From a virus (Duplodnaviria > Heunggongvirae > Uroviricota > Caudoviricetes): a stretch of DNA of 51,967 nt. Position 1 is the stretch's first letter; each line of letters starts with the position of its first letter. The notes below the pieces were generated by a model, which saw only the letters and a program-made list of their open reading frames with translations, made no database searches and was not told the DNA's origin. Positions 16,446 to 30,637 of this stretch are shown here, in pieces. The translations under genes and the position numbers were made by a program. The stretch is from IMG/VR virus record IMGVR_UViG_3300028999_000002; one strand, given 5' to 3'.

Positions 16446-17953
16446 TCATGGCATGGCCATGAGCATTTTCACGTCCGCATCACCGTCTGCTGACGTCTGT
16501 GCCACGCCACCCTGTACCGCTGCCGGTGAATGGTTCGCCATGAAATGTTCAAACATGGCGGTTGTGGATGCAGAGACCGGTTCTGCCTTACCTGATCCCG
16601 CAGCCAGCACAGCCCGGGCGCTCTCCACTGTCATTCCCGGGCAGGCAGCCAGCTGTTCAGCCTGCGCCTCAGCCCCTTTTGCCTCATCCAGTGCCATGAT
16701 CTGATCACGGAGTGATGGTCCGGCATCCGCCTGCGGTGAAGCAGCCAGGATCGGGCGGGCTTTTTCCACCGTCATCTCCGGCATCGCCGCCAGCGTTGCC
16801 GCCAGTTGTTCACGACCGTTCGCTTCTTCACACGCCATAATGCGATCGGCTTCACTCTGCGTGGATGCCACCGGCNNNNNNNNNNTGCCGCCGCGGCCAG
16901 AATCGCCCGGGCCTGTTCAACGCTCATGCCCTGTTGTCCTGCCAGCATCGTGGCAAGCTGTTCACGTCCTTTCGCTTCCTGGCATGTCAGGATCCCCATC
17001 ACTCGCTGGTTCTCCTGCGCGGCGGCTTCCGTTGCAGTTAATTGCGGCATAGTGCCTCCTCTGACATTACTGTTCAGCGCCGTGGCCATCACACTGATGG
17101 CATCCGACGCATTGATTAATTCATCCGCCAGCCCGGCCTCAATGCCGGACTGACCTTCAAAAACGGCAGCCTCTGTTCCCGTGACGGCATCAACAGACAG
17201 ACCGGTATACATCGCCACTTTTTCGGCAAACATCCGGCGCGCCGCATCAATCCGCTGCTGCATGTCCTGGCGAACCTCTGCCGGCAACGCTTCAAACTGA
17301 TTGCCATCCACCTTGTGCGCCCCTGAGTAAATCAGCGTGATATCCACACCGGCCTGCGCCAGATGACCGGCATAGCTGACATGGCTCATCATCACGCCAA
17401 TGGAGCCGATACGGGATGTCTGGGTAACCAGCCGTCGGGAGCAGGCCGACGCCAGCAGCATGGCTGCAGAACAGGCCGTGTCATTGCACAGTGCCCAGAC
17501 CGGCTTCTGCTGACGGAGGCGGTAAATCATGTCAGCGCAGTCAAACGCGCCGGCGGCCTGCCCGCCCGGACTGTCAATGTCCAGCAGTACGCCCCGCACC
17601 TGGCTATCCGCCATTGCCTGCTGAAGACAGGCGACAATGCCGTCATAGCCTGTCATTCCGGAAAATGGCCGCATACCACCCAGCCGGTGCACCAGCGTGC
17701 CGGTCACCGGCAGTACAGCAATACCGTTCACCACCCGGTAAACACGGGCCGGTCGTTTACCTCCGGCCATGTACTCGTCCGTTTCAGCCAGCATTCCGGG
17801 AGCATCAAACTGTACCTGCTGTTGTGGTACCGAAAGACTTGCTGCCCCCATCTCGCGCCCGAGCGCGCAAAAGAAAACCCGCGCATAGGCGGGCTCCAGA
17901 AGCAGCGGTTCATTGAATGCTGCGGCAATAATGTGTGAAAGATTACGTCTCAC
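16446..17953 (-). CDS. C: capsid assembly protease C with in-frame scaffold (Nu3-like) region; interrupted by an N10 assembly gap
   Basis: N-terminal 390 aa match lambda gpC (…AFNEPL.LEPAYARVFFCAL…, S49/ClpP-like); C-terminal region contains repeated Nu3-like motifs on both sides of the N run. Confidence 0.8.
16876..16885. other. assembly gap (10 N) inside the C/Nu3 repeat region
   Basis: Run of n characters. Confidence 0.99.
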
Positions 17954-18722
17954 GTGGTGTTGTCTCCTCTTCCGGCCTACGACTCTCCGCTATCTGCTGC
18001 TGATACGCCTGCTCTATCCACACCGGACGTGAGAGTCCGGCTTTTTGCCGCTCAGCAGATTCCCTGACCTGCTGGCGGAAAATGTCCTGATAATCCTCGC
18101 CCATCAGCGCCAGCTCTTTCTCATACGTGCTCAGTCCGGCCTCAATGCGCATCACTGATTCCTGGACTTCCTTGAGCCCGTCAATGGCCATTCTTCCGGC
18201 ACCAATCCACTCTGCCCGTGACCAGGCTGATCGCGCCTGATAAAAATCAAAACGTGCCCGTGGCGGACGAATAATCCCCCGAAGAAGTGCCTCTTCCAGC
18301 CAGCAGGAAAACATCTGCGTGGCCAGCCGGGCCGCAATAAATTTTCGCCGCCCCATAAAATAGCGCCACGACTCATTGGCGGAGGCGCGGGCACTTGAGT
18401 AACTGACCTTCGAGTAATCACGGGACAACTGTTCGTAGGAAACGCCAAGACCGGCGGCGATATACCGCAGCAGCGCCTGTTCAAGCGCAGAAAATCCATT
18501 GTCTGAATCCTGCGCAGTCTGTAGTTTCAGATCATCACCAGGGAAAAGGTGCGGAATTTTGACACCGCCCAGTGTCACGTTATTCGTGTCATACCAGCTG
18601 GAAAACTTCTCCAGAATATTAATAAGCGGATTATCCTTCTGCTCCTGTGGCGCGCCGGCGATATATTCAAAGGCCTTTTCGGTATCAAGTTCACTTTCAA
18701 TCGTCGCTGCATACATCGCCTT
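17943..18722 (-). pseudogene. B: portal protein B, C-terminal half (gene split by insertion of the element at 18723-29608)
   Basis: Translation matches lambda gpB from ...KAMYAATIESELD to the C-terminus; no N-terminal half upstream, replaced by non-coding satellite sequence. Confidence 0.9.
18710..18722. repeat. left copy of the 13-bp direct repeat (att core, plus-strand CATACATCGCCTT) flanking the inserted element
   Basis: Same 13-mer with one mismatch at 29609-29621, exactly at the two breakpoints of portal homology. Confidence 0.75.
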
Positions 18723-18796
18723 TATGAAAAGACAGGAAAAAATAAAATTTAAAAACAGTACATTACGAATGCTCAGACCTATCGTTTAAAGGAGTC

Positions 18797-18817
18797 GCAA
18801 TACACACTGCAATACAC
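18797..18817. repeat. two tandem GCAATACAC(A) repeats near the left end of the element
   Basis: gcaatacacactgcaatacac; same motif three times at 29434-29485 next to the integrase gene. Confidence 0.7.
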
Positions 18818-19159
18818 GATTATTTATAAGATGAGCGGCATCCGTCATAAAGCTGGTGGATGCTTTTTCTATGCATATATGCACAGTTTTAGTGGGCGTT
18901 AATGTCGATATAGGGATCCCCATATCGAGATTGGATACCTGGCTTTTTTCCGGTTAACCTTTAATCAGGCTGGTGGGCTTTACCTGTTTTGTATGAGTGG
19001 TCATCATGACCATGTCATAACAAAAACCCCATATTCGTGGTTTTTCTGTGTCGGGCTATTCTGTCGTTGCTGTGCTGATTTGGCTGGTGGGCTGAATCAT
19101 CATTACGGCGATGCAGCTATGTAGACGTTCCTGCCTCCTCAAATTGAGGATTGTGGAAG

Positions 19160-19284
19160 AATCAATGGGTTAGTCTTACTTTCCCGACATCCCCCAATGG
19201 GGGTTTTCGAAACAATCAATAGCTTAGGCTTACTTCCCCGATTTCCTGCATTGCAGGTTTTCGAAATAATCAATGGGTTAGGCC
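19160..19284. repeat. tandem ~55-bp repeats, each with a short GC hairpin followed by TTTTCGAAA
   Basis: Two full units plus a partial third; hairpins CCCCCAATGGGGG and CCTGCATTGCAGG; a third hairpin CCCCCAGTGGGGG at about 19365. Confidence 0.7.
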
Positions 19285-19531
19285 ATCGTGCAATTTTGCA
19301 CTTTGCCAGCCAGCGCAATGTCGCGTTATCAGTCCTCAGATGTGAGGGATGTAGCCAGCTTTTCCCCCAGTGGGGGATATCCAGCACCGACGGCTTAACT
19401 GTGCGTGCCAGCACAAGGTAGCCTTGAACTACTTACTGCATCCCATCTTACAGGCCGTGCCTTCCTGCTTAACTTTTTGCAATGCAACAAGTCAGCCAGC
19501 GCAATTTTGCGTTATCGGGAATATCAGCAAG

Positions 19532-19813
19532 TTACCGCCGCAATCGTTCCGGCTTCTTCCACTGGTAAGTATTTTTCGCGCTCTCCCTCCGTTGTTGAGA
19601 ACGGCGACGATATGCCAGCAACTCAAGGACTCTTGTTCGTATGTTGCGCATATCCACGCCGTTAAGCTCAATACCGTCACGGCGCATCACCTCAGCCACT
19701 ACACGCACATAATTATCTGCGGTCACGCTGTCCGGCTGCGTGGCCTGTTCGTCATGCTGCTTGCTGATTCCACAAGCACGGCGGATTAATCGCAGTATTT
19801 CGGATTCAGTCAT
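19532..19813 (-). CDS. hypothetical protein (satellite)
   Basis: 93-aa ORF downstream of the satellite Nu1-like gene, same strand; no recognisable family. Confidence 0.4.
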   Translation of the reverse strand: MTESEILRLIRRACGISKQHDEQATQPDSVTADNYVRVVAEVMRRDGIELNGVDMRNIRTRVLELLAYRRRSQQRRESAKNTYQWKKPERLRR

Positions 19814-19824
19814 AGCGTACTACG

Positions 19825-20367
19825 TTACTTATCTTTATTCGGCTGCAACTTATCCGGTACGTTTCCGGCAGTTTCCATCAGATAATCGGACAGCATCAGC
19901 GGTATGTTTTCGTCAAGTTTTGCGCATGCGTTACAGGCTCTGATAACTTCTTTTTTCAGTCCATCCAGCATAGACGGCTTCATGTCGGGAAACTTCCTTG
20001 TCATGGCAAGCGGCAGGCTGTCCATGATTGAAGAAATCTGACTCGCCAATTTTGAAAGCACGTATATACAAAACGCTGTATCAATAACGTCGCCGCGTTC
20101 GCGCTCGTTTTTAAGCTCCTGCGCCTCTGCCTGTGCTGTCAGCAATCTGATCCTGACTCGTAGGAGTTCATCATCATCAATCTCGCCTTTGTCGTCTGTA
20201 ATCTGGTTAATTGCATTGCTAACCCGATTGTCTATTACGCTGGCAACATCATAAAACGCCTCGCGGCCTTTACGTTCAACGGGAGTCACTCCCCACTTGT
20301 CGAACGCTGTCGCACTTACACGGCAGCTTTGCGCCATGTTTTTTTTGTTCATCAGGTGCGATTTCAT
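19825..20367 (-). CDS. Nu1-like terminase small subunit (satellite-encoded)
   Basis: C-terminal two-thirds align with lambda Nu1 (…RLLTAQAEAQELKNERERGDVIDTAFCIYVLSKLASQISSIMDSLPLAMTRKFPD…); N-terminal DNA-binding region divergent; start set at the ATG with a GGGGA SD. Confidence 0.8.
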   Translation of the reverse strand: MKSHLMNKKNMAQSCRVSATAFDKWGVTPVERKGREAFYDVASVIDNRVSNAINQITDDKGEIDDDELLRVRIRLLTAQAEAQELKNERERGDVIDTAFCIYVLSKLASQISSIMDSLPLAMTRKFPDMKPSMLDGLKKEVIRACNACAKLDENIPLMLSDYLMETAGNVPDKLQPNKDK

Positions 20368-20439
20368 CAATATCCCCACTTAAGTAATGTTTCAGGTTGG
20401 TGTATTGGCTTTATCTTTTCCTTTTTATTCATAGAGATA

Positions 20440-20530
20440 GAGCGAACAACAAAACCACCACCAGCACCCGAAAAAGGCTCATAAATAGCGAAAACCCGCG
20501 AGGTCGCCGCCCCGTAGCCTACCGGATCGC
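20440..20530 (-). other. satellite cos site (lambda-type cosN GGGCGGCGACCT at 20501-20512, with adjacent cosQ-like and cosB-like sequence)
   Basis: Minus strand reads GGGCGGCGACCTCGCGGGTTTTCGCTATTTATGA, matching the remembered lambda left cohesive end; directly upstream of the Nu1-like gene. Confidence 0.85.
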
Positions 20531-20568
20531 CGGAAAGGACCCGCCAGCCAGAACGGGCCCTAATTTCA

Positions 20569-20952
20569 TCAACCAATCAACTTATAGCGACCATCCCGTG
20601 CATTGCGACGTACACGCTCAATCTTGAGGCATAGCGCCGCATCTGGCTTTTTTGGGACAGGTACGCGGCAATATTCAGAAGATCGAGGAATATTGTTTAT
20701 CCAGTCGATCACTTCACTTAAATACCAGGCCTTACGCCCTTCCGTAACCTGTACGCGTTCGGGGAACTCTCCGCGAGCCTCAAGGTTTAGCAATGTGCGA
20801 CGGCTAAGGGTAGTAAGTTCCATCACCTGATTCATATCAACAAGGCGTTCACTTAAACGCATTTTGTCAGCAATAGCCTTTAATTCCTCTACTGCTGGAT
20901 CCGGATACATCATTTCGGCAATTGGCTTAAGGTCATTGTAATGATTCTGCAT
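20569..20952 (-). CDS. AlpA/excisionase-like HTH DNA-binding protein (satellite)
   Basis: C-terminal part resembles the AlpA/Xis-type HTH (…LSRRTLLNLEARGEFPERVQVTEGRKAWYLSEVIDWI…); lies between the D-like gene and cos. Confidence 0.45.
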   Translation of the reverse strand: MQNHYNDLKPIAEMMYPDPAVEELKAIADKMRLSERLVDMNQVMELTTLSRRTLLNLEARGEFPERVQVTEGRKAWYLSEVIDWINNIPRSSEYCRVPVPKKPDAALCLKIERVRRNARDGRYKLIG

Positions 20953-20963
20953 TGTATCCCCCT

Positions 20964-21305
20964 TTACACACGAGCCAGCGGCTGAACAGAAATACCTGAG
21001 CCAACAAACGCGGCAACCTTTGCCGACAGTTCTTTTACAGACTCAGGCCAGTTCAGAGCATCAACATTTAAAACACCTGTCTTATAAACCTGTGCCTGTG
21101 TTTTTTTCGCTGTGTCGATTTGTACAGCGGAAACATAAACCGCTTTACCTACGCTCGAACCATCCCATACCACCAGTGCACCTGTTGCATCTTCCTGCAT
21201 CAGTGGCGTAAATGCAGGAATTACCCCTTTATTAGCTGAAAATATCCCCAGCGTAGTCACCAGTGCTTCAGTGCCAGCCATGAGTTCAGTGTAATGAGTA
21301 GCCAT
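20964..21305 (-). CDS. head decoration protein D-like (satellite)
   Basis: 113 aa; shares TPLM…ATG.LVVWDG…YK(S/T)G…WPESV with the prophage D at 16062-16409. Confidence 0.75.
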   Translation of the reverse strand: MATHYTELMAGTEALVTTLGIFSANKGVIPAFTPLMQEDATGALVVWDGSSVGKAVYVSAVQIDTAKKTQAQVYKTGVLNVDALNWPESVKELSAKVAAFVGSGISVQPLARV

Positions 21306-21314
21306 TGCTCCCCC

Positions 21315-22361
21315 TTAGCCAATGCGAACGGTAACAAAACGATTGATGCGGGCCGGTATTGGCTGTGGTGCTGAATGTGTCTGCACATATTCAATAGCCG
21401 GATCACCAGGCACAATATAGTTTTTCGGTGCAAGTTCGGCTTTAGTCAGCCCCATTCGGATTAGCTCCGGATCCTGAATACCGCCATAGGCGACAATCCC
21501 CTGAAGAGCCGTATTGCCAAGCACCATCAAATCAGGATCAAGGAAATGTTTTTCTGTTCCGTCCTCGTCGGTATAACGCCCGCTGTAAACAACAATCGCA
21601 ACATCGCCCATATACCCTTTAAAACTCACCGAATCACCAAGGTCTTTAAGGGCCGTTTCCAGTTCGGAATTAGAACCACGACGGGTATCCAAAGCCTCTT
21701 TTATCGCTCTGAATGAACGGTATTTCTTCCATACATTACCACCCATAATGATGATATTAGTGACGCCCTCACTAAATTCTGCGTAGCTCTCAATATCATC
21801 ATTTGGATCAAAAGTTTCTTTATCCTTACCTGACCACTCAGTACCGCCAGACTGAGTGATGATATTTTGTGGTTTTATATTCCAGTCCAGCTCATAACGT
21901 TCAATACCATCGCCCTCAATGATATTTTTCCCCGTTGTGATTGCCTGAACAGCAAGCCATTCAATACGTGCACGAATAGCTTTAGCCTGATTTACAATCG
22001 CCTGTTTAACTTTAATATTACGCGCCCCAAAAGCATTGTATTGCTCAGGTGACACACCAGCAGGGCGCACAGCTAACTTATTTGGATCAATGCTGCTTTT
22101 CGGCTTCATATAACCTGGACGAATTGTTTTTGATTCGTATCCCTCATCTCGTGAAACTTTACTGCCCACCATAGGAGAGCAAAACGCCGCGATCGGGATA
22201 TTTGGATCGTCGATCGTATCAAGAATAATGTCTCTCGATTCAAACATTACCGAGCGAGTGAAAAACAAACTGGTAAACAACGCATTTAATTTTTTTTGCA
22301 CATCTTCAGCATTAGCCACCTGCACAAGCTGTGTAGGCGAATATAAATCAACCATACTCAT
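21315..22361 (-). CDS. major capsid protein E-like (satellite)
   Basis: Shares ITQSGGTEWS, LDTRRGSNSELETA, GDVAIVVYSG blocks with lambda gpE; start set at MSMVDLY by analogy with lambda MSMYTT (the next Met two codons on is equally possible). Confidence 0.85.
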   Translation of the reverse strand: MSMVDLYSPTQLVQVANAEDVQKKLNALFTSLFFTRSVMFESRDIILDTIDDPNIPIAAFCSPMVGSKVSRDEGYESKTIRPGYMKPKSSIDPNKLAVRPAGVSPEQYNAFGARNIKVKQAIVNQAKAIRARIEWLAVQAITTGKNIIEGDGIERYELDWNIKPQNIITQSGGTEWSGKDKETFDPNDDIESYAEFSEGVTNIIIMGGNVWKKYRSFRAIKEALDTRRGSNSELETALKDLGDSVSFKGYMGDVAIVVYSGRYTDEDGTEKHFLDPDLMVLGNTALQGIVAYGGIQDPELIRMGLTKAELAPKNYIVPGDPAIEYVQTHSAPQPIPARINRFVTVRIG

Positions 22362-22572
22362 CCTCTTTACATTCATTACAAATAATTGTGAATATATTCT
22401 ATTACCGATGTCTGCTATGCGAATACATGCAACCAAGTGCAATGTTGTATAAAATATGCCGTAACAACTTCAGTGCTGATAATTCGTGTTAATGTATTTA
22501 CTTCCTTTGGTCGGGATTTATGTAGCATGCCGGAAAATCTATTTTTTTCCGGCATCTTTTTGTTTGCAGAAT

Positions 22573-22995
22573 TTAAAACGGTATATTATCGCCGTACGGA
22601 TCATCATTCCCCGACTGTTGTTTTGCCCTGTTCAGTGCGTCAGTGGCCTGCCCCTGCTGGCCTTTTTTGCCGCCCGGTCGCGCCGTTCGCGCACTGATTA
22701 CGCTGTCTGCGATAACCTGCCAGCCCCGCCGAGTTTCGCCGTTCTGGCCTGTCCACTGGCTTACCTGCATGTTACCCGCCACGCTCACCAGTTCGCCTTT
22801 GTGGTGTTTTGCCAGTGCGTCGGCCTGTCTGCCAAACGCCAGGACGGATAACCACATCGTCGCCGTTCCGTCATCTGCCTGGCTGCACGGCAGGGGAACC
22901 GCCATACTCGCCATCGCCATTTGTGTCCCTTTGCTGGTGGTCTTTAACTGCGGGTCAGCCACCAGCCGCCCGTAAGCCGCTATCTGTGCTGTCAT
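22573..22995 (-). CDS. SSB-like single-stranded DNA-binding protein (satellite)
   Basis: 140 aa with an OB-fold-like N-terminus and the SSB-type acidic tail ending …DDPYGDNIPF. Confidence 0.55.
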   Translation of the reverse strand: MTAQIAAYGRLVADPQLKTTSKGTQMAMASMAVPLPCSQADDGTATMWLSVLAFGRQADALAKHHKGELVSVAGNMQVSQWTGQNGETRRGWQVIADSVISARTARPGGKKGQQGQATDALNRAKQQSGNDDPYGDNIPF

Positions 22996-23306
22996 GCTGT
23001 CTGCTCTCCGGTTTTAACATTGATGGTTGTCACCTGTTCCGCTTCGGCAATCTCCCGTTCTGTCAGCGTGGCAAAGTTTGCCGCTGCTGTGGTCATGAAT
23101 GCGCTTATCAGGTCGGGATGTTCCTTCGCGTATCCTGCCCGTGTGTGGTGGTCTATCGCTTTGATTGCCACCTTTAAGGAAAGCTCTGTCATGTCTAACG
23201 CTTTATATTTTGCCTGTGTTCTGTCTCTGCGAATTTTGGTCATTTGTCGCCCCTGATTCATGTTTTCGGCTGGCATGTTTGTTAAGTGATTTTTATGTAT
23301 GCGCAT
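22992..23306 (-). CDS. hypothetical protein (satellite)
   Basis: 104-aa ORF overlapping the SSB-like start by 4 nt; no recognisable family. Confidence 0.4.
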   Translation of the reverse strand: MRIHKNHLTNMPAENMNQGRQMTKIRRDRTQAKYKALDMTELSLKVAIKAIDHHTRAGYAKEHPDLISAFMTTAAANFATLTEREIAEAEQVTTINVKTGEQTA

Positions 23307-23329
23307 TTATTTTCACCCCCCCCTCGTTT

Positions 23330-23585
23330 AAAAAGTTTTTAGTTGTGCCTCCCCCCCTCTACCCATCTACCCGAATGCTCATCATGTCAGTAATAGCGCG
23401 GCTTTCAGCGGGTAGATAGCTTTTTGACTCCTCTACCTGCCGTCTACCCTGCTACCTGAAACTGATAAAATCAGGTAGAAGAGGTAGAGAGCTTTTATTA
23501 GCCTTCTACCTAGCCCTATACCCACTTATCATGTTGAATAATATGCGTTTATTTTGTTCAGGTAGATGGGGTAGATGGCTTTTAC
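23330..23585. repeat. iteron array (GGTAGA / TCTACC hexamers in both orientations, C-runs): putative satellite replication origin
   Basis: About 11 copies of the hexamer in 250 bp immediately 3' of the primase gene. Confidence 0.65.
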
Positions 23586-23591
23586 AAAAAA

Positions 23592-25346
23592 TTATAAAAA
23601 CGCGTCGCAATCGTCTGTTGTAATTGCGTTGGTCTGCGTTACTCCCTTAACTTTTCGCGTAATATATTCATGCCCGTAAACTTTCGCCGCTGGCTTCATG
23701 GCCTTGCTGAACTCAGCCACGTTTAGCGGTTTGCTCCTGCCCGCGTATGCCATAAACGCCAGATAGACGCGGTAAAGGCTGTTCCTGGTCGTGTACTTCA
23801 CTGAATCACCACCGCCACCCATCATCAGGCCGCGCGCTTCCTCCAGAAAATTCAGGAACTGGCAAAACTCAATAACCGGATCCGTCTGTTGCTTTATTGC
23901 CAGTGCTTCATCACCGTCACGCTGTTCCAGTAGTAAAGCCCGTGCCTTCTCAGGGTCGGTAAAGTTCGCCAGCAATCGGCGGATAATAACGGGGATTTCA
24001 GCCGCAATCTTTTCCGGTAGCTCCCTGTCTTTTTCGGCCTCACTGACGATATTGTCGAAACGGAAAATCACGCGACGACGTGCCACACCTCCGGCCCGTT
24101 CGGTGAATATCATCGGGTTGTTGTTGGTCGCCAGCACCACCGCCCTGATTACCGCCGTGAAACGCTTTTCATATTTCGGGTTAATTTCCACGGGGTCGCC
24201 GCCTGTGATTTTCTTGATGCCCGTTCCTTCGCCTGTATATTTCGGCTGGTCAGCCAGGACGATAAGACGACTCCCGACAACCTGCGCACGTCCACCAGCA
24301 TCATCAAGCGATGTCATTTCAGCGCTTACCGTGTTCTGTTTCCCTGCCAGAAGGCTGGCTATGTGTGTGAATGTACTTTTACCGCTCCCGCCGTCTCCGG
24401 TGGCCTCAATAAACATCTGCCAGTCGTACCGGTTCGCCATAATCATGTACAGCGCGGCACATATACGCATCATCTTGCGCGGGTCTTTTCCGGCTGCGTG
24501 CTCAAGCCATTTATGAAAGTTTGGCGCGTTATCGCGGATGTTCTCCCCTGGTGCTGGTGGCGTGTACTCAATGCCGTTGTGCGTGGTGATCCAGTTCTCC
24601 GGCGTGTGCGGGGAAAATTCCCCCGTTTTCAGGTCAAGCGCACCATTGGCGAACGGCAGCAAATCGCCAGACGGCTCGCCCATTGGTTCGGCAATAACTT
24701 TTAACGCTTCCACGGCGTTATTGATTACGCGCTTGCTGAAAGTGGCCCTGTGCTCTGAATAGATCGCCACCATTTCGCGGCTAAGTTCCATTGTGCTGAC
24801 CGGACACCATACCCCGCCGCGCCATACGTGAACGATTTCACTTTCAGGATGTACGCAAACGCCATCAAAGCGATCGGCAAGCAACTGCGCGCGCTCACTG
24901 TCCGCCATCTGCGAAAGTTGCGCCTTTTGCTTTACCGGAAGCTCAATGACCAGACCATCAGAAAGATTCTGGCGTTCACGGGCCAGATATTCGCGCCAGT
25001 TCTGCACCTCCTGGCCGTGCATACCCTCAGGATAAAAATTTGCATCCTGTACGCCTGCTGCCGCCAGCTTCTGACCAATCGCCTTTATCATTACAGGCGC
25101 AAGATATCCGGCCCTGTATATGCGTGCTGATTTTCGGCCTTCCGGCACAATTTGCAGATTATCCAGTTCGGATAGCTGCTGCTCCCCAAGCCACACAGGA
25201 GGCTCATTATCTCCGGCCATACGCGCATCATGTTCCTGCCATTGTTTCGCGTGTGCCCAGGCATCACTACCCGCAAAAATAATGACTTCTGTTCCTTTGT
25301 GTTTTATGCCGCGTGACTGCTGTTTTACGTTCGGTGCCAGTTTCAT
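23592..25346 (-). CDS. primase / replication initiator with P-loop NTPase (D5-like helicase) domain (satellite pri-rep)
   Basis: 584 aa with Walker A …ATGDGGSGKST… and the overall architecture of phage/satellite primase-helicases. Confidence 0.8.
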   Translation of the reverse strand: MKLAPNVKQQSRGIKHKGTEVIIFAGSDAWAHAKQWQEHDARMAGDNEPPVWLGEQQLSELDNLQIVPEGRKSARIYRAGYLAPVMIKAIGQKLAAAGVQDANFYPEGMHGQEVQNWREYLARERQNLSDGLVIELPVKQKAQLSQMADSERAQLLADRFDGVCVHPESEIVHVWRGGVWCPVSTMELSREMVAIYSEHRATFSKRVINNAVEALKVIAEPMGEPSGDLLPFANGALDLKTGEFSPHTPENWITTHNGIEYTPPAPGENIRDNAPNFHKWLEHAAGKDPRKMMRICAALYMIMANRYDWQMFIEATGDGGSGKSTFTHIASLLAGKQNTVSAEMTSLDDAGGRAQVVGSRLIVLADQPKYTGEGTGIKKITGGDPVEINPKYEKRFTAVIRAVVLATNNNPMIFTERAGGVARRRVIFRFDNIVSEAEKDRELPEKIAAEIPVIIRRLLANFTDPEKARALLLEQRDGDEALAIKQQTDPVIEFCQFLNFLEEARGLMMGGGGDSVKYTTRNSLYRVYLAFMAYAGRSKPLNVAEFSKAMKPAAKVYGHEYITRKVKGVTQTNAITTDDCDAFL

Positions 25347-25642
25347 TTTTTACCTCTGAATCCGTTAATCATGGTTTTCATTTTCTGGATATTTCCCCAC
25401 GCTTTTTCCCTGCTGATGGGCTTACTGCGGGGTGCGGCATATACCAGGGAAAAATCACGCCGGAACTGATAAACAGGCATCACGCAGTCATAGCTATACC
25501 CCTCACGGCGGTAAGTGATGCGCCGTTCTGCCACGCCTTTAATCGTTACCGTGCCGCCGTATTTATCGCGGTAAATATCGCCGTTCATAAATTCAGGTCG
25601 AGCGGGGCCGCTGGCAATAAAGCCAGAATTTTTCATTTCCAT
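25343..25642 (-). CDS. hypothetical protein (satellite early operon)
   Basis: 99-aa ORF overlapping the primase start by 4 nt. Confidence 0.45.
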   Translation of the reverse strand: MEMKNSGFIASGPARPEFMNGDIYRDKYGGTVTIKGVAERRITYRREGYSYDCVMPVYQFRRDFSLVYAAPRSKPISREKAWGNIQKMKTMINGFRGKK

Positions 25643-25659
25643 ATTATTTATTCCTCGAC

Positions 25660-25881
25660 TTAACTCGACTTATTTGATAGCAGGGCACTATTTATTGCGT
25701 CATTGAGTTTTTCTGCTGATTCATCAATAAGTGACAACAGGCCATAAGCAATATTTGCATCTTCATTGTCATTTATGCAATCAAGCCACATATTTAATAT
25801 TGCTTTTGCTGAATTATTTAAAGTTAATGAACTTTCTGCACATGCTAACAATTTAAAAAAGACTTCCCGTTCTGTATTCAT
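25660..25881 (-). CDS. hypothetical small protein (satellite early operon)
   Basis: 73-aa ORF in a tightly packed co-directional series. Confidence 0.35.
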   Translation of the reverse strand: MNTEREVFFKLLACAESSLTLNNSAKAILNMWLDCINDNEDANIAYGLLSLIDESAEKLNDAINSALLSNKSS

Positions 25882-26073
25882 TTAATCCCCCACCAGCTTA
25901 CTTTCTTCCTCAATCAAAAAACTAGCGACACTTCCCGAAAGACGCGCCAGTAGGCTCGCCAGTGCGGATATATCAGCATCTGTAATTTTGTTCGGGTATA
26001 CCTCAAGAAGGCGGCAAATAATTTCTGTCTGGTGCGCACGTTCAGCGGCTTCGTGTAATGTAATTTCCTGCAT
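25882..26073 (-). CDS. hypothetical small protein (satellite early operon)
   Basis: 63-aa ORF abutting its neighbours. Confidence 0.35.
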   Translation of the reverse strand: MQEITLHEAAERAHQTEIICRLLEVYPNKITDADISALASLLARLSGSVASFLIEEESKLVGD

Positions 26074-26258
26074 TAATGCACCTCTTTTAATTCATACACT
26101 GCTGAAATAATGACTTGTGATAAGCCATATTCTGATGATTCGCTTCTCACCGCAGCAATAGCCGTCTGAACATTAACAGCCTTCACATTCTGAGCGATAC
26201 CAATTGTGTGGCCTATTGGGTTAACAGCTCGGGCAAATACACGGAAGGTTTTAAGCAT
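26073..26258 (-). CDS. hypothetical small protein (satellite early operon, first gene)
   Basis: 61-aa ORF; stop overlaps the next start. Confidence 0.35.
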   Translation of the reverse strand: MLKTFRVFARAVNPIGHTIGIAQNVKAVNVQTAIAAVRSESSEYGLSQVIISAVYELKEVH

Positions 26259-26540
26259 GACTCACTCCCTGGCGGATTTTTGCAGCGAATACAGCAACAC
26301 AACCGGACGGGCAACGGCTACGCGCTTCGCGTTCCGTCCAGGCGGTTACGTGGATGATTTGAGATTCTCCGGCACTCAGTGCCAGAAAACGCCACACAAA
26401 GGCCGTTTGTGTGTGTACAAGGTGTGGTATATGATTTACAGCAACCATAACGGCTCCTAGTTTACGTTGTTGGTTAGACGCCCCGTATGTGTTCCCAGCA
26501 CTGCGGGGCGTTGCTCTTTGTATTTCAACAATCCTTTCGG

Positions 26541-26618
26541 TGTGTTTCATGTTATGAGCGCATGAAACACACGTCAAGGCTTTTTGTATTTCTTTTTTTG
26601 TGTATACTGAAACACACC
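26541..26618. promoter_or_regulatory. divergent promoter/operator region of the satellite with an 11-bp perfect inverted repeat (TGTGTTTCATG n9 CATGAAACACA) and a third half-site
   Basis: IR at 26541-26571; additional TGAAACACACC at about 26608; sits between divergent minus- and plus-strand gene sets. Confidence 0.55.
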
Positions 26619-26638
26619 GATGATTAGGAGTTTCAGAA

Positions 26639-26944
26639 ATGGCAACGGCTAACAAAAACGCAAAATCACAACTGACAACTGTCAGAGTCCCACTAGATGT
26701 TATGCAAGGGATGGAATCCGTTAAGCTGGACGGTGAAAGCAATGCCGGATTTATCGTAACCGCCATGCGCGGAGAAATAGCCCGCCGCCAAGCAGAAGGC
26801 AGCGGAGAAAATCCCCTTGTGTCGTCACTGGATGCCCTGGCTAAGGTCGAACAAATCGGCATCAAAGCAGCCGAGGAGATCGGGCAACTCGTCACCGTCG
26901 CGCGTGAAGAACTCCAGCGACGCAAGGTCAAAGAGCATGAATAG
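26639..26944 (+). CDS. hypothetical small protein, candidate regulator (satellite)
   Basis: 101-aa ORF with AGGAG SD, transcribed divergently from the early operon just downstream of the operator-like IR. Confidence 0.45.
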   Translation: MATANKNAKSQLTTVRVPLDVMQGMESVKLDGESNAGFIVTAMRGEIARRQAEGSGENPLVSSLDALAKVEQIGIKAAEEIGQLVTVAREELQRRKVKEHE

Positions 26945-27001
26945 CCAATATCAGCGCCATAGTTTGAGGAACGCAGGCGCATTGCTTTACAGGACAGCAC
27001 C

Positions 27002-27181
27002 ATGAGCGACACAGAATCAACCAAAACACCATCACCAACTCGTAAGAGACGACGCAAAAATATAGCGCATGAACATGAATCAGAAAGATTCGCACCTTGT
27101 TCGTTTGCTCTTGAGAAATTCCTTAAAGAGCACAGGAAAAAGCTCTCGTTGCAAACCTTGGAACGAACCAAATCTGACTGA
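27002..27181 (+). CDS. hypothetical small basic protein (satellite)
   Basis: 59-aa ORF found by manual translation (below the ORF-track cut-off); Lys/Arg-rich N-terminus. Confidence 0.25.
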   Translation: MSDTESTKTPSPTRKRRRKNIAHEHESERFAPCSFALEKFLKEHRKKLSLQTLERTKSD

Positions 27182-27277
27182 TCACATTGCCCACCAGCCG
27201 CAAATGTGGCATTGTTGGTGATGCTTTTGTTTTCCCTTGTTCCCACTGGCGACCCTTTTGCGGTCGCCTTTGTTTTG

Positions 27278-27856
27278 TCACTGAATGCGGTTACCAAAGT
27301 AAAACTCAGGCTGATATTCACGTATCAGCGTTTTTTCTTCTTCCTCCAGCTCACGCTTTTTGCGCTTACATGCCTGTAGCTCCCTCCCCTTCTCGCTGGC
27401 ACTTATTTGATATTGCTCTTTACGGCGGGAAAAATCCTGTAATGCACCCCACGGGATACCATAAGTCCCCGTTTTTCTGATACCTGGTATCACATTTCTG
27501 AATACCCAGTTACTGAAACGATGAGCAAATGTGCCAGGCGTCGTTGCTTTGCGGCTGCGGGCTATTAGTTTGTAGAAACCTGACTCAGAGATAATTCTCA
27601 TATTCTGATTTCCTCCTGGGGTGTAAGTTAAATTTACTCCCTTTTCATCATCATCAAGCATCTGCAACGCCGTACGCGAATTGGTTAGTTCCAGCGCAGC
27701 ACAAACATCTTTTGCAACAAACCACGGATCGCCGTTCAGATACACCACACGAACGTTCACACTATCAAAGCGCAGAACGACGAGATCACGAATATCGCAG
27801 AATTTTTTCACTGGACGAGCGTACCCCTTGCCCGTCACGGCAATATTTTTATTCAT
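27278..27856 (-). CDS. Bro-N domain protein (antirepressor-like)
   Basis: N-terminal …VVYLNGDPWFVAKDVCAALEL… is a typical Bro-N motif. Confidence 0.7.
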   Translation of the reverse strand: MNKNIAVTGKGYARPVKKFCDIRDLVVLRFDSVNVRVVYLNGDPWFVAKDVCAALELTNSRTALQMLDDDEKGVNLTYTPGGNQNMRIISESGFYKLIARSRKATTPGTFAHRFSNWVFRNVIPGIRKTGTYGIPWGALQDFSRRKEQYQISASEKGRELQACKRKKRELEEEEKTLIREYQPEFYFGNRIQ

Positions 27857-27912
27857 CGCGTTTTTACCTTATAGACAAAAAACCCCTCGTGATGAGGGGC
27901 ATTATTTACTGG

Positions 27913-28170
27913 TTATTGCTGTTTTGTTTTTCCAGGTTTCCACCCAGGATGCCACTCACCACGGATCCATGCCTGAACCTCTGAAAGTCGATACCCTGCA
28001 GCACGTTCACCGATCTTGATACGTCGCGGGAATTTACCTGCCTGCTCCATTTTCCAGCGTGTTGAGTTTGCCAGCGTGGTAAGTGCTATGCACTCTTTTT
28101 CACGAATGAACCGATCAATGTCCTTCATTGTGCGCAAATCGTTTTCATCAACAAGAGAATAAATTGCCAT
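27913..28170 (-). CDS. alpA: AlpA-family transcriptional regulator
   Basis: 85 aa, AlpA-type HTH (…RWKMEQAGKFPRRIKIGERAAGYRLSEVQAWI…), immediately downstream of int as in P4-like and PICI elements. Confidence 0.75.
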   Translation of the reverse strand: MAIYSLVDENDLRTMKDIDRFIREKECIALTTLANSTRWKMEQAGKFPRRIKIGERAAGYRLSEVQAWIRGEWHPGWKPGKTKQQ

Positions 28171-28171
28171 A

Positions 28172-29413
28172 TCACACCACCTCTTTATTAAGCTCGATAA
28201 CGTTGTTGTTAAATCCTGCTATCGTATTAAGGTAATTAACCCACATATTAAGCACCTCAAGTTTTTTCTTTATATGCCTGCTTTTATTGTAAACACCAGC
28301 AACCCCTTTCACTTTATGACCTAAAAGAAGTTCGACAATATAAGGATCCGCCCCCATATCATTAAGCGTAGTGGAAAATGTGCGCCTGAAATCATGTATG
28401 CACCACAAGCCATTAGTATCATGACCAAGACGCCTGCATATTCTGTTTGCAGCCCCTGTTATTGTCGCCCTTTGCAAAGCACAACCGACAACATAACCGC
28501 GATTTTTTGTTTCTGCGTAAAGATTAACGATCCATTGTTTTATTCCGTCAGGAACAGGCCTTACTATAGCCTCCTTGTTTTTGCTGTGCTCTTTTGGGAC
28601 TGTCCATACCCAGTTTTTTAAATCCCATTCGTCCCAGGTGGATAGCCTCGCCTCCTGCTGTCGGCAACCAAACACCAGGCAGATAACCATTATTCTTCGG
28701 TTATATATTGATGACAGAGTTAGCAAATTATTACCGTAAGCATAAGACCATACATCAGCGGTTTCATTGATATTAAGAACGCGATCCCTTATACCGGATG
28801 AGCGCCCGACATAACTTACGTTAATATCTCCAAAGGGATCGCACGCGATGTATTGCCTGACGCGACAAAAACGCAACGCCTGTTTGATATCAAGAAAAAT
28901 TGCACCAGACATAACAGGCGCATTTTTTTTGATCCTGTCAAAGACGGTAAGCCATGTGTGTAATTTGCACTGTTCTATAGCCATATCACCGATATAGGGG
29001 AAGATATGCTTTTCAAATCGTTTTATTAAATATTCATGCTCTTTTCTGGCTGTTGTGGCGTGATTGTCGTACCAGTAAAACAGCGCATCCCTTACGGTCA
29101 CTGGTTGCATAGTTTTTTCGGCAGCAAGTTTTATTTGCCTGCGGGGGTCCAGATTTTCAGCCAGCCATTCACGGCACTGATCACGCATGCGCCTGGCCGT
29201 TGCAAGAGACATGTCAGGATAGCGACCAAGTGTAAGCCATACCGGAGGGGATTCCCTGCCACCAAGACGATAGTAAAAAACAAAGCTGATCCCCCCAACC
29301 ATGCTTACACGCACAGACAACCCGCGCCCATCCGCTATTGTTTTTTGTTTGTCCTGCCGTTTTCCGACAAGACTCTTTAACAGTTTGTCACTGAGTTTGT
29401 TTTCAATAGCCAT
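28172..29413 (-). CDS. tyrosine integrase, P4-type (satellite)
   Basis: 413 aa; P4-family integrase N-terminal domain and C-terminal catalytic region; 5' end about 200 bp from the right junction. Confidence 0.9.
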   Translation of the reverse strand: MAIENKLSDKLLKSLVGKRQDKQKTIADGRGLSVRVSMVGGISFVFYYRLGGRESPPVWLTLGRYPDMSLATARRMRDQCREWLAENLDPRRQIKLAAEKTMQPVTVRDALFYWYDNHATTARKEHEYLIKRFEKHIFPYIGDMAIEQCKLHTWLTVFDRIKKNAPVMSGAIFLDIKQALRFCRVRQYIACDPFGDINVSYVGRSSGIRDRVLNINETADVWSYAYGNNLLTLSSIYNRRIMVICLVFGCRQQEARLSTWDEWDLKNWVWTVPKEHSKNKEAIVRPVPDGIKQWIVNLYAETKNRGYVVGCALQRATITGAANRICRRLGHDTNGLWCIHDFRRTFSTTLNDMGADPYIVELLLGHKVKGVAGVYNKSRHIKKKLEVLNMWVNYLNTIAGFNNNVIELNKEVV

Positions 29414-29433
29414 TAAAAGCCCTCAAGAGATTT

Positions 29434-29485
29434 GCAATACACACCCATCCCGATCGCCAATTTGCAATACACATTGCAATACACA
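29434..29485. repeat. three GCAATACACA repeats between the integrase start and the right att core
   Basis: gcaatacacac … gcaatacaca ttgcaatacaca; same motif as at 18797-18817. Confidence 0.7.
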
Positions 29486-29561
29486 AAACCGCGAAAAACT
29501 GGAAGGGTGATGAACGGTCATCAAAAGCATGGAAAACGACATTCCAGACGCAGCAAGGGTT

Positions 29562-30434
29562 TCAGTGGAGTTGGCGAACGATGCGGGCAACTACGGTGAG
29601 ATGATAGACATAAATCGCCTTCACTATGGCCGACTGAAGCTGTGTTGCCTGCAGGGAATCGAGCATCTTCAGCCGTTCCATGACGCTGTAAAACTGATTA
29701 GCCCCACGGGTCTGCCCGTCCTCCACCGGCTCGAAAATATGCAGCATGGCCGGACGCCCGGTGGGAAGTTCACGCGGGATCCGTTCCCATCGTCCACTAC
29801 CAGAGAACGGAAAATCATCCTCACAGATATGGTACGCGACGGCACGGCCATATCGATCGACCTCCACACCGGCCCGCAGAAAACGGTTCCCCATACCGTG
29901 TCCAGGCGTGTCCACCCGTTTCGGACTCACGGCTTTAAAACGCGTACGGAATAACTGCGTGGTTTCCGTATCCCAGACCGGCTGCACAAAGATTTCGCCG
30001 TTAAACGCATGAACGCCCACACCTTCACGGATAAATTCCGTGAACGTGCGTTTTCCTTCCACGTCGATCTCGCCAAACATCCCTTCGGCGTATTCCGACC
30101 AGGCCGCCTCCACCTCATCGACAAAGCTTTTTGCTGCGGTCTCCCGCATCCCCAGCCAGCGCCAGTTCGGACGGTAGCTGATCAGAAACATATGCCCGAC
30201 AATGTGATCCTTATGCAGAGCCACCGCATTAGCCGCTATTCCGTTATTGCGCACCAGATCATCTGCCCGGGCATTCCCCAGACGCAACGCGGGCAGCAGG
30301 GCCGCATCGGCACTCTGCGCCGGTGGCAACCACTCAGCCATTTGCCCGCCAAATCCTGCACCGCCCCCGTTGTAGCTGAGACTCTCACGAAGCGGAACGC
30401 CGTTCACATCAATCAGGACAGGCGTTCGTTTCAT
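29562..30434 (-). pseudogene. B: portal protein B, N-terminal half (ends in 15 element-derived codons after the junction)
   Basis: Translation matches lambda gpB up to …LQSAIVKA(I)Y, then diverges into element sequence and stops. Confidence 0.9.
29609..29621. repeat. right copy of the 13-bp direct repeat (att core, plus-strand CATAAATCGCCTT)
   Basis: Portal homology ends exactly here; one mismatch to the left copy. Confidence 0.75.
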
Positions 30435-30637
30435 AACCTCACTCCCAGCGGACGACGGCGACACCGGGTTGTCCCCAGTACCGACTCCGCATCATTGATC
30501 GCCCGGTTAAGCTCATCCAGAGAAGCCGCCGTATATTCAATTCTGCGACCATCTTTCTGGACAGACACCACCCGTTTACCGGTTAATAAATCAAGGCGCG
30601 CCTGACGCAGCGCCTGCAGTTCAGCGACTGTAACCAT
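30431..30637 (-). CDS. W: head-tail joining protein W
   Basis: 68 aa, lambda gpW-like (…LLTGKRVVSVQKDGRRIEYTA…). Confidence 0.9.
   Translation of the reverse strand: MVTVAELQALRQARLDLLTGKRVVSVQKDGRRIEYTAASLDELNRAINDAESVLGTTRCRRRPLGVRL

What the first reader, a model, noticed from the sequence alone, without database searches (positions are those of the whole stretch)
29434..29485. GCAATACACA repeats at both ends of the satellite (three near int, two near the opposite junction)
The same 10-mer occurs in direct orientation at 29434-29485 (three copies, between int and the att core) and at 18797-18817 (two copies, near the other junction). This resembles arm-type integrase binding sites on the P and P' arms and supports these junctions as the element's att sites.
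Basis: partly seen in the sequence, partly recalled or inferred. Interest (0 to 1): 0.45.

Follow-up and report, generated by a model that had tools for sequence, protein, structure and literature searches.

The report
Known satellite integrase arm-site repeats
The repeated 10-mer is real and marks both ends of a phage satellite inserted in its helper prophage's portal gene, but this motif and its likely role as integrase docking sites were already published in 2023.

Summary
GCAATACACA occurs exactly at 29434, 29464 and 29476 and at 18797; 18809 carries a 9/10 copy. All five are co-oriented, against 0.16 exact matches expected by chance. They flank a 10.9-kb satellite that splits the portal gene of a phage-21-like prophage. 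The crossover block ATCGCCTT lies at 18715-18722 and 29614-29621.

Read in the integrase direction, the repeat is TGTATTGC. This is the "doubled motif" tgTGTATTGCantgTGTATTGCa that Tommasini, Mageeney and Williams (2023, PMC10111431) reported for helper-embedded PICIs. The element fits their B:Phage_portal_2:241 group in identity block, size and spacing.

I reproduced the motif's conservation and fixed spacing independently:
- 79 of 79 testable integrase relatives (52-100% identity) carry it upstream of int.
- A scan of 185,579 species genomes found it next to such integrases only in Enterobacterales.

Integrase arm-type sites remain the best reading, but no one has shown which protein binds; AlpA is not excluded.

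Small additions:
- A fifth half-site is specific to the portal-241 clade.
- Two chromosomal PICI clades use the same geometry with different octamers.

Verdict: correct, ordinary, already known.

The parts
29463..29485 (-). Int-proximal doubled motif. On the - strand it reads TGTGTATTGCAATGTGTATTGCA: two tandem half-sites with a 12-bp period. Its first octamer lies 134 bp from the centre of the 8-bp identity block.
   Evidence: It matches the published consensus tgTGTATTGCantgTGTATTGCa.
29433..29443 (-). Extra fifth half-site (TGTGTATTGCA on the - strand). It lies 30 bp from the doubled motif and 20 bp upstream of the int ATG.
   Evidence: It is conserved, with constant spacing and a diverged spacer, in the sampled portal-241 clade members whose Int is 76-100% identical. 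It is degenerate (TGTATTGT) at 70% identity and absent from other site groups.
18796..18818 (-). Int-distal doubled motif. On the - strand it reads CGTGTATTGCAGTGTGTATTGCG. It ends 78 bp from the centre of the identity block.
29609..29621 (.). att core at the int-proximal junction: CATAAATCGCCTT. The exact identity block ATCGCCTT is 29614-29621.
   Evidence: It equals the published block 'aaggcgat' on the other strand.
18710..18722 (.). att core at the int-distal junction: CATACATCGCCTT. The exact identity block ATCGCCTT is 18715-18722.
   Evidence: The two blocks are 10,899 bp apart, the size of the listed element Eco14781.11.
28172..29413 (-). Satellite tyrosine integrase (413 aa) with an Arm-DNA-bind_3 N-terminal domain.
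   Evidence: PF13356, E = 3e-17; PF00589; PDB 3JU0 and 3JTZ, N-terminal domains of P4/CP4-like integrases.
27913..28170 (-). alpA (85 aa). Its start (28170) lies directly after the int stop codon (28172-28174). It is the candidate excision factor or activator, and the rival binder.
   Evidence: PF05930, E = 5e-14; PDB 8C3T, AlpA family.
18723..29608 (-). Body of the helper-embedded PICI. Gene order: int, alpA, Bro-N, DUF4222, D5-type primase, SSB, gpE-like capsid, gpD-like decoration protein, a second AlpA-like ORF, Nu1-like small terminase.
29609..30434 (-). 5' part of the helper portal gene (lambda B cognate), 99.9% identical to phage 21.
17943..18722 (-). 3' part of the helper portal gene. 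Phage 21 coordinates run on from the 5' part with a 13-bp overlap.

Best explanation
The repeats are the arm-type recombination sites of a helper-embedded PICI satellite (site group B:Phage_portal_2:241). The satellite sits in, and is co-oriented with, the portal gene of a phage-21-like prophage. In the excised circle the attP reads, in the int direction: doubled TGTATTGC, about 78-81 bp, crossover (AAGGCGAT), about 132-134 bp, doubled TGTATTGC, 30 bp, single TGTATTGC, 20 bp, int ATG. The most likely mechanism runs as follows. The N-terminal arm-binding domains of the satellite's integrase tetramer bind the tandem half-sites on both arms. The C-terminal domains bind the core. This bridging folds attP (or attL plus attR) into the intasome that carries out integration into the portal gene, and excision that restores it. 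Because the int-proximal sites lie 20-72 bp upstream of the int start codon, bound integrase probably also damps transcription entering int-alpA. What is shown here: the sites, their geometry, their conservation, their specificity to this integrase clade, and the att junctions. What is inferred: that integrase rather than AlpA is the binder, and the autoregulation.
For: The junctions and core were mapped against an intact phage 21 portal gene. The motif is enriched far above chance.

Conservation and specificity:
- The doubled motif is perfectly conserved directly upstream of Int homologues that are only 47-70% identical, in eight Enterobacterales species genomes, while the flanks are unrelated.
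- Four further hits are distal arms next to late-gene remnants.
- About 35 hits in other phyla have no Int homologue nearby, consistent with chance-level matches.
- 79 of 79 IMG/VR integrase relatives with upstream sequence carry it. Most loci with enough downstream sequence also show a co-oriented distal pair 10-11 kb away.

Geometry:
- The distance to the crossover is fixed: 134/78 bp here and 133/82 bp in the capsid-E group.
- The distance to the int ATG varies from 14 to 51 bp, so the constraint comes from recombination geometry, not from gene expression.
- In distal arms the two octamers are invariant while the 4-nt linker and the 80-bp spacer vary freely.
- TGTATTGC is the only k-mer on both arms in all 20 non-redundant attPs.

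The integrase:
- It has an Arm-DNA-bind_3 domain.
- That domain is more conserved across site groups (61-71%) than the core-binding (40-45%) or catalytic (42-49%) domains. This fits an invariant arm motif with changing core specificity.
- Two related integrase clades keep the same architecture, with an arm-to-arm distance of 212-213 bp, but use different octamers: TGTATAAAC in fis cf-PICIs and TGTGGTCA in a thiM-rcnR cf-PICI.

Literature: the motif and this hypothesis were published in PMC10111431. KplE1 IntS is an experimentally shown precedent for arm sites that overlap the int promoter and give negative autoregulation (PMC2951348).
Against: - No binding data exist for any HE-PICI. The original authors leave AlpA or an unknown protein open.
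- AlpA's putative recognition helix also co-varies with the octamer across the three clades, so covariation does not separate Int from AlpA.
- No IHF consensus was found in attP, so how the arms bend back to the core is unexplained.
- No sigma-70-like promoter was found between core and int, so the autoregulation step has no mapped promoter to act on.
- My distances (78 and 134 bp from the centre of the 8-bp identity block) differ by 2-3 bp from the published 81 +/- 2 and 132 +/- 2. This is probably a difference in how the centre is defined; the sums are 212 and 213.
Confidence: 0.7

Rival explanations
1. The octamers are bound by the satellite's AlpA protein, a winged-helix Xis/Vis-like factor, rather than by integrase. 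AlpA would then act as an architectural or directionality factor on both arms.
For: - alpA starts directly after the int stop codon.
- In EcCICFT073, AlpA expression drives Int-dependent excision (PMC6092414).
- Xis-type proteins bind tandem direct repeats (established knowledge).
- AlpA is well conserved among HE-PICIs in the stretch TTLANSTRWKMEQ.GKFP, and it differs in the fis and thiM clades that use other octamers.
- The authors of PMC10111431 list this option.
Against: - In the well-studied systems I know (lambda Xis, P2 Cox, KplE1 TorI), directionality-factor sites lie on one arm. Here equal doubled sites lie on both arms.
- If AlpA took these sites, the integrase's conserved arm domain would have no candidate site, because no other k-mer is shared by both arms.
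- AlpA identity to the window's protein across the HE-PICI relatives compared is 40-70%. That spread is wider than for the Int arm domain, at 61-71%, although the octamer is invariant.
- A separate degenerate GTTTT repeat next to the proximal motif could be the real AlpA site.
Confidence: 0.17
2. The int-proximal repeats are mainly a transcriptional operator or promoter element for the int-alpA operon. Examples would be an AlpA auto-activation site or an antitermination loading site. The distal copy would be incidental.
For: - The proximal sites lie 14-51 bp upstream of int in every relative.
- AlpA activates its own promoter in EcCICFT073.
- int is co-oriented with the helper late operon, so read-through control is plausible.
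Against: - Spacing to the crossover is fixed, while spacing to the int ATG varies.
- An equally conserved doubled copy sits at the far end of the element, where the next thing downstream is the crossover and not a satellite gene.
- No promoter-like hexamers were found in the region.
- In EcCICFT073, AlpA did not control the int promoter.
Confidence: 0.08
3. The repeats are a chance recurrence or a neutral remnant of a duplication, with no function.
For: Isolated GCAATACA octamers are somewhat over-represented across the whole window: 7 outside the arms against about 2 expected. One exact 10-mer lies in the helper's bor gene.
Against: - None of 100 shuffles reached the observed count.
- The octamers are invariant across Int relatives down to 47% identity while the flanks are scrambled.
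- The spacing is fixed.
Confidence: 0.01

Closest known systems
Doubled motif tgTGTATTGCantgTGTATTGCa of helper-embedded PICIs (Tommasini, Mageeney and Williams 2023, NAR Genom Bioinform 5:lqad036, PMC10111431)
   Same: The sequence is identical: GCAATACACA is its reverse complement. It has two co-oriented doubled copies flanking the attP crossover at about 81 and about 132 bp. The target (Phage_portal_2 profile position about 241), the identity block aaggcgat and the roughly 10.9-kb size are the same. So is the proposed function: arm domains of the Int tetramer, or AlpA.
   Different: Nothing essential differs. The paper describes four half-sites. This element and its portal-241 relatives have a fifth, 30 bp nearer to int. 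My distances from the centre of the 8-bp block are 78 and 134 rather than 81 and 132.
Phage lambda attP arm-type sites P1, P2, P'1-P'3, bound by the Int N-terminal domain
   Same: Both have a short motif unrelated to the core, repeated on both arms at tens to more than 100 bp from the crossover. Both have five sites, split 2 + 3, with tandem sites about one helical turn apart. Both use a heterobivalent integrase (established knowledge; summarised in PMC2951348).
   Different: The motif sequence differs. The integrase belongs to the P4/CP4 type (Pfam Arm-DNA-bind_3). Here the int-proximal arm is the long arm, and it carries three sites. No IHF consensus was detected. All sites are co-oriented.
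KplE1 (CPS-53) IntS arm-type sites overlapping the intS promoter, giving negative autoregulation (Panis et al. 2010, PMC2951348)
   Same: The arm-type sites lie between the core and the integrase gene, so integrase bound for recombination can also repress int.
   Different: KplE1 integrates at the tRNA gene argW, and its sites and promoter were mapped experimentally. Here no promoter was detected, and int may be fed by helper late-operon read-through.
Chromosomal capsid-forming PICIs at fis and at thiM-rcnR in E. coli
   Same: They share the attP architecture: a tandem doubled half-site with a 12-bp period just upstream of int, and a co-oriented doubled copy at the far end. The arm-to-arm distance is 212-213 bp.
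   Different: The octamers differ: TGTATAAAC in the fis clade and TGTGGTCA at thiM-rcnR. The targets are chromosomal. Int arm-domain identity to this element is 57% and 42% respectively.

Membership tests
Helper-embedded PICI (HE-PICI), site group B:Phage_portal_2:241 | [quoted passage not shown] | tested here: met
   The portal gene is split into Pfam profile positions 2-242 and 238-354. The flanks are 99.6-99.9% identical to phage 21 and contiguous in phage 21 coordinates. int and the portal gene are both on the - strand.
Helper-embedded PICI (HE-PICI), site group B:Phage_portal_2:241 | attL/attR identity block 'aaggcgat' at portal profile position about 241; element size about 10.9 kb | tested here: met
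   ATCGCCTT lies at 18715-18722 and 29614-29621, 10,899 bp apart. The paper's supplement lists 'aaggcgat', and a 10,899-bp element Eco14781.11.
Helper-embedded PICI (HE-PICI), site group B:Phage_portal_2:241 | Gram-negative PICI gene order: int-alpA, Bro-N zone, primase/replication zone, captured late genes | tested here: met
   Pfam hits: integrase, AlpA, Bro-N, DUF4222, D5_N/DUF5906 primase, SSB, Phage_cap_E, HDPD (gpD), Phage_Nu1.
Helper-embedded PICI (HE-PICI), site group B:Phage_portal_2:241 | Two co-oriented copies of the doubled TGTATTGC motif, 81 +/- 2 bp upstream and 132 +/- 2 bp downstream of the attP centre | tested here: met
   78 and 134 bp from the centre of the 8-bp identity block, summing to 212 against the published 213. 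The capsid-E group measured the same way gives 82 and 133.
Helper-embedded PICI (HE-PICI), site group B:Phage_portal_2:241 | Integrase falls in the HE-PICI integrase clade on a phylogeny | not tested
   No tree was built. Indirect support: 100% identical integrases occur in IMG/VR elements with the same core, and identity to capsid-E and CLP-protease group integrases is 47-54%.
Helper-embedded PICI (HE-PICI), site group B:Phage_portal_2:241 | Satellite excises after helper induction and restores the late gene | not testable with these tools
   Shown experimentally only for 11capE in PMC10111431. Here it is only inferred that crossover within ATCGCCTT would rebuild a phage-21-type portal ORF.
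Arm-type integrase binding sites (lambda-type heterobivalent tyrosine integrases) | The integrase carries an N-terminal arm-DNA-binding domain | tested here: met
   PF13356 Arm-DNA-bind_3, residues 7-94, E = 3e-17. PDB 3JU0 and 3JTZ are N-terminal domain homologues.
Arm-type integrase binding sites (lambda-type heterobivalent tyrosine integrases) | A repeated motif, different from the core, on both arms of attP at a defined distance from the crossover | tested here: met
   It is the only k-mer present on both arms in all 20 non-redundant attPs.
Arm-type integrase binding sites (lambda-type heterobivalent tyrosine integrases) | The motif is conserved in relatives while surrounding DNA diverges, and it changes with integrase clade | tested here: met
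   Conservation. Clade-specific octamers with the same geometry. Caveat: AlpA co-varies too.
Arm-type integrase binding sites (lambda-type heterobivalent tyrosine integrases) | Direct binding by the integrase N-terminal domain, and a requirement for recombination | not testable with these tools
   The searched library holds no binding or mutational data for these elements; only PMC10111431 mentions the motif or HE-PICIs in a relevant context.
Recombination directionality factor (Xis/AlpA-type) binding sites | Sites confined to one arm, between the integrase arm sites and the core | tested here: not met
   Equivalent doubled sites occur on both arms. The one-arm rule is taken from lambda, P2 and KplE1 (established knowledge; for KplE1) and is not universal.
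Promoter-proximal operator for int | Fixed position relative to the promoter or start codon of the regulated gene | tested here: not met
   The distance from the doubled motif to the int ATG is 14, 21-23, 44 or 51 bp in different groups, while the distance to the crossover is constant. No sigma-70-like promoter was found.

The most novel reading that the evidence does not exclude
The doubled octamer may be one allele of a family-wide, clade-specific 'arm code'. Integrases of this P4-like PICI family all keep two tandem half-sites, with a 12-bp period, on each arm about 213 bp apart. The octamer differs by clade: TGTATTGC in HE-PICIs, TGTATAAAC in fis capsid-forming PICIs, TGTGGTCA in a thiM-rcnR PICI. 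This qualifies the published statement that the doubled motif is unique to HE-PICIs. In the portal-241 clade, an added fifth half-site 20 bp from the int start may act as an integrase operator. That operator would gate helper late-operon read-through into int-alpA and so time the restoration of the portal gene.
Probability: 0.4. Interest if true: 0.4.

Novelty: already known. Interest (0 to 1): 0.2.

Why it matters
The repeats belong to the recombination machinery that decides when a satellite leaves its helper's portal gene. That in turn decides whether the helper phage can build heads at all. Because the motif, its spacing and the arm-site hypothesis are already published, the value here is confirmation. 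The window holds a textbook B:Phage_portal_2:241 helper-embedded PICI, and the doubled octamer is a reliable annotation signature for such elements. It picked out integrase-adjacent sites in Enterobacterales only, in a scan of 185,579 species genomes. Two modest additions give concrete designs for the missing binding and specificity-swap experiments: the fifth half-site, and the cognate octamers with the same geometry in two chromosomal PICI clades.

Tried and rejected
- **tRNA target.** ARAGORN found no tRNA in the window. The target is the portal gene.
- **Known RNA family.** Rfam found nothing in the element at E <= 0.1.
- **Promoter between core and int.** None was found. A weak 9/12 promoter-like match just upstream of the distal motif (18848-18819, - strand) is at chance level.
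- **IHF sites.** There is no match to WATCAANNNNTTR with up to 1 mismatch in the reconstructed attP.
- **The 35102 copy as a helper-borne site.** Rejected. It is single, inverted, and inside bor coding sequence that is 99% conserved in the best-matching lambdoid phages such as phage 434.
- **Covariation to separate Int from AlpA.** This failed because both proteins co-vary with the octamer.
- **Near-identical E. coli copies.** 65 of 5,426 complete genomes carry the element at >=97.8% identity. These were uninformative for footprinting.
- **blastn 'distant' with int.** It gave only short catalytic-domain hits, but these led to the fis, thiM-rcnR and CLP-protease elements.
- **Longest-common-substring core finder.** It returned spurious 7-9-mers in loci whose true cores are imperfect. 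Only the recurrent 8-11-bp blocks were used.
- **Literature.** A search for TGTATTGC, GCAATACA and HE-PICI found no relevant work besides PMC10111431. PDB 8C3T (AlpA family) has no relevant paper in the library.

Full report
**1. The observation**

An exact search finds GCAATACACA on the + strand at 18797, 29434, 29464 and 29476, and on the - strand at 35102. That is five matches where dinucleotide-preserving shuffles give 0.16, and none of 100 shuffles reached five. A further copy at 18809-18818 is GCAATACACG, a 9/10 match. Tandem copies are 12 bp apart start to start. The third right-hand copy is 30 bp from its neighbour. All five arm copies are co-oriented.

**2. What the surroundings are**

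The window carries a phage-21-like prophage whose portal gene is split. The 5' part matches Pfam Phage_portal_2 positions 2-242, at 29562-30464 on the - strand. The 3' part matches positions 238-354, at 17943-18716 on the - strand. Both flanks are 99.6-99.9% identical to phage 21. Phage 21 coordinates run straight across the gap with a 13-bp overlap. The overlap reads CATACATCGCCTT at 18710-18722 and CATAAATCGCCTT at 29609-29621.

Phage 21 (attB) has the C variant. The left copy is attB-like and the right copy differs at that one base. So the crossover took place within ATCGCCTT, at 18715-18722 and 29614-29621. In 1,908 of 5,426 complete E. coli genomes, similarity to the junction probe either starts at 29609, in the rows listed (portal only), or covers the whole probe. 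This confirms the breakpoint.

The 10.9-kb insert encodes, all on the - strand:
- a P4/CP4-type tyrosine integrase with an Arm-DNA-bind_3 N-terminal domain
- AlpA
- a Bro-N protein
- a DUF4222 protein
- a D5-type primase
- SSB
- a gpE-like capsid protein
- a gpD-like decoration protein
- a second AlpA-like ORF
- a Nu1-like small terminase

There is no tRNA gene in the window.

**3. It is already described**

A full-text search found Tommasini, Mageeney and Williams 2023 (PMC10111431). They define helper-embedded PICIs (HE-PICIs): satellites integrated in, and co-oriented with, late genes of lambdoid helper prophages.

Their "Attachment sites" section reports a motif "tgTGTATTGCantgTGTATTGCa". 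It is found in two co-oriented copies per attP, 81 +/- 2 bp upstream and 132 +/- 2 bp downstream of the attP centre.

Their supplement lists a site group B_Phage_portal_2_241 with identity block "aaggcgat", the reverse complement of ATCGCCTT. It includes E. coli elements of 10,899 bp. That is exactly the distance between the two blocks here. The finding is therefore an independent rediscovery of a published feature, with the same interpretation.

**4. Geometry here**

In the int orientation, the distal doubled motif ends 78 bp before the centre of the 8-bp identity block. The proximal doubled motif begins 134 bp after it. Capsid-E-group HE-PICIs measured the same way give 82 and 133 bp. The sums are 212 and 215, against a published 213. 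The 2-3 bp offsets probably reflect how the centre is defined.

**5. Independent tests of function and specificity**

(a) I scanned one genome for each of 185,579 species with TGTATTGCNNTGTGTATTGC. This gave 51 stretches.
- Eight lie 14-44 bp upstream of integrase homologues that are only 47-70% identical to this one. The genera are Erwinia, Rahnella, Kluyvera, Arsenophonus and Xenorhabdus. The motif is perfect while the flanks are unrelated.
- Four more are distal arms followed by an AT-rich spacer and apparent coding sequence. One reproduces the same AAGGCGAT core at the same distance.
- About 35 hits are spread over unrelated phyla with no integrase homologue. This is of the order expected by chance: about 17 under uniform base composition (my arithmetic).

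(b) Of 80 IMG/VR loci retrieved by integrase homology (52-100% identity), all 79 with upstream sequence have the doubled motif just upstream of int. Most loci with enough downstream sequence have a co-oriented doubled copy 10-11 kb away.

(c) In distal arms the two octamers are invariant, while the 4-nt linker and the 80-bp spacer vary freely.

(d) TGTATTGC(A) is the only k-mer present on both arms in all 20 non-redundant reconstructed attPs. The next best unrelated k-mer is shared in at most 8.

(e) The distance from motif to crossover is constant. The distance from motif to the int ATG ranges from 14 to 51 bp. The constraint therefore comes from recombination geometry, not from gene expression.

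**6. Who binds?**

The case for integrase:
- It has an arm-binding domain, and no other candidate arm site exists.
- That domain is markedly more conserved across site groups (61-71% identity) than the core-binding (40-45%) and catalytic (42-49%) domains. This is what one expects if the arm motif is invariant while core specificity changes.
- The sites are on both arms.

The case for AlpA:
- It is encoded immediately downstream of int.
- It is needed for excision and induction in EcCICFT073 (PMC6092414).
- Its presumed recognition helix is conserved among HE-PICIs.

I looked for covariation to separate the two. A fis-integrated capsid-forming PICI (E. coli PE15) has, at the equivalent positions, a doubled TGTATAAAC on both arms with an arm-to-arm sum of 213 bp. 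A thiM-rcnR PICI (E. coli ST648) has a doubled TGTGGTCA with a sum of 212 bp. The fis-type motif is general: of 76 IMG/VR stretches carrying it, 29 lie 14-27 bp upstream of fis-type integrases, and 13 contigs carry two copies.

So the architecture is family-wide and the octamer is clade-specific, as expected for arm-type sites. However, AlpA differs between these clades too, so covariation does not settle which protein binds. My estimates are about 0.7 for integrase, about 0.17 for AlpA, and the remainder for a mainly transcriptional role or for chance.

**7. The fifth half-site**

The copy at 29434-29443 is not part of the published description of two doubled copies. The sampled members of the portal-241 clade whose Int is 76-100% identical all carry it at a constant 30-bp spacing. 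Where I aligned them (88-100% identity), the spacer has diverged. It degenerates to TGTATTGT in the Erwinia relative at 70% identity. It is absent from other site groups, where the doubled motif abuts the int ribosome-binding region.

It lies 20 bp upstream of the int ATG. By analogy with KplE1 IntS, whose arm sites overlap its promoter and give negative autoregulation (PMC2951348), it may let integrase throttle transcription into int-alpA. This is inference only. I found no sigma-70-like promoter between core and int. That fits int being fed by helper late-operon read-through, as the HE-PICI authors suggest.

**8. The sixth exact copy**

The copy at 35102 (- strand) is single and inverted. 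It lies in the 3' end of the helper's bor gene. That stretch is 99% identical in the best-matching lambdoid phages, such as phage 434. I treat it as coincidence.

The bare octamer GCAATACA is nevertheless over-represented in the window: 12 against 2.0 expected, with 7 outside the arms. One of these, in the satellite's capsid gene, sits in codons GAG-CAA-TAC. It is invariant across diverged HE-PICIs while neighbouring synonymous positions vary. I did not pursue this.

**9. Verdict**

The feature is already known. The element is a standard member of the B:Phage_portal_2:241 HE-PICI group, and interest is therefore low. The only new points are:
- the clade-specific fifth half-site
- stronger conservation of the Int arm domain than of the rest of Int
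- cognate doubled octamers with the same roughly 213-bp geometry in fis and thiM-rcnR PICIs, which qualifies the paper's statement that the doubled motif is unique to HE-PICIs

Which protein binds remains untested.

Noticed in passing
L136 (E. coli PE15, NZ_CP041628.1:2578000-2597700) and L137 (E. coli ST648, NZ_CP008697.1:3058000-3082900); IMG/VR loci L138-L213: Chromosomal capsid-forming PICIs at fis and at thiM-rcnR have the same attP layout as the HE-PICI: a doubled half-site with a 12-bp period on each arm, 212-213 bp apart. Their octamers differ (TGTATAAAC and TGTGGTCA). The published paper says the doubled motif is absent from fis PICIs. That is true for TGTATTGC, but a cognate motif sits in its place.
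   Followed up: partly
window 19136-19281: Three 54-bp direct repeats lie downstream of the Nu1-like small-terminase gene, near the int-distal end. Each has a CTAACCCATTGATT-like box followed by a short GC-rich hairpin. They may be packaging (cos) or terminator elements of the satellite. There is no Rfam match.
   Followed up: no
window 23410-23584: Iteron-like direct repeats (GGGTAGATAGCTTTT three times, and TCAGGTAGA...GCTTTTA twice), with inverted partners, lie immediately downstream of the D5-type primase gene. This is probably the satellite's replication origin.
   Followed up: no
window 20569-20952 (- strand): A second AlpA-family ORF (127 aa; PF05930, E = 1e-8) lies between the gpD-like and Nu1-like genes, in addition to the alpA next to int.
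   Followed up: no
window 1268, 3845, 5896, 22037, 28849, 35104, 42343: Isolated GCAATACA octamers outside the arms number 7, against about 2 expected for the whole window. Six are in the opposite orientation to the arm sites. The one at 22037, in the satellite capsid-E gene, occupies codons GAG-CAA-TAC and is invariant in diverged HE-PICIs although neighbouring synonymous sites vary.
   Followed up: partly
window 29486-29530 (core side of the int-proximal doubled motif); the same position in L004, L005, L012, L018, L049, L074, L077: Short GTTTT(T/C) repeats about 10-12 bp apart recur just next to the proximal doubled motif in 8 of 9 non-redundant HE-PICI arms. I counted 13 occurrences in 405 nt, where roughly 2 are expected. 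They are candidate AlpA or directionality-factor sites, by analogy with lambda Xis sites next to P2.
   Followed up: partly
L135 (E. coli 90-9280, NZ_CP024240.1:2400402-2405579): This HE-PICI, in a ClpP-type head-protease gene, is itself nested next to another PICI's primase gene. [quoted passage not shown] Its doubled motif lies 14 bp from the int ATG.
   Followed up: no
window 18837-18864 (+ strand): A terminator-like hairpin (GGCATCCGTCATAAAGCTGGTGGATGCT followed by a T run) lies just inside the satellite's int-distal end, facing inward. It is immediately beside the distal doubled motif. The count is at chance level for the region scanned.
   Followed up: no
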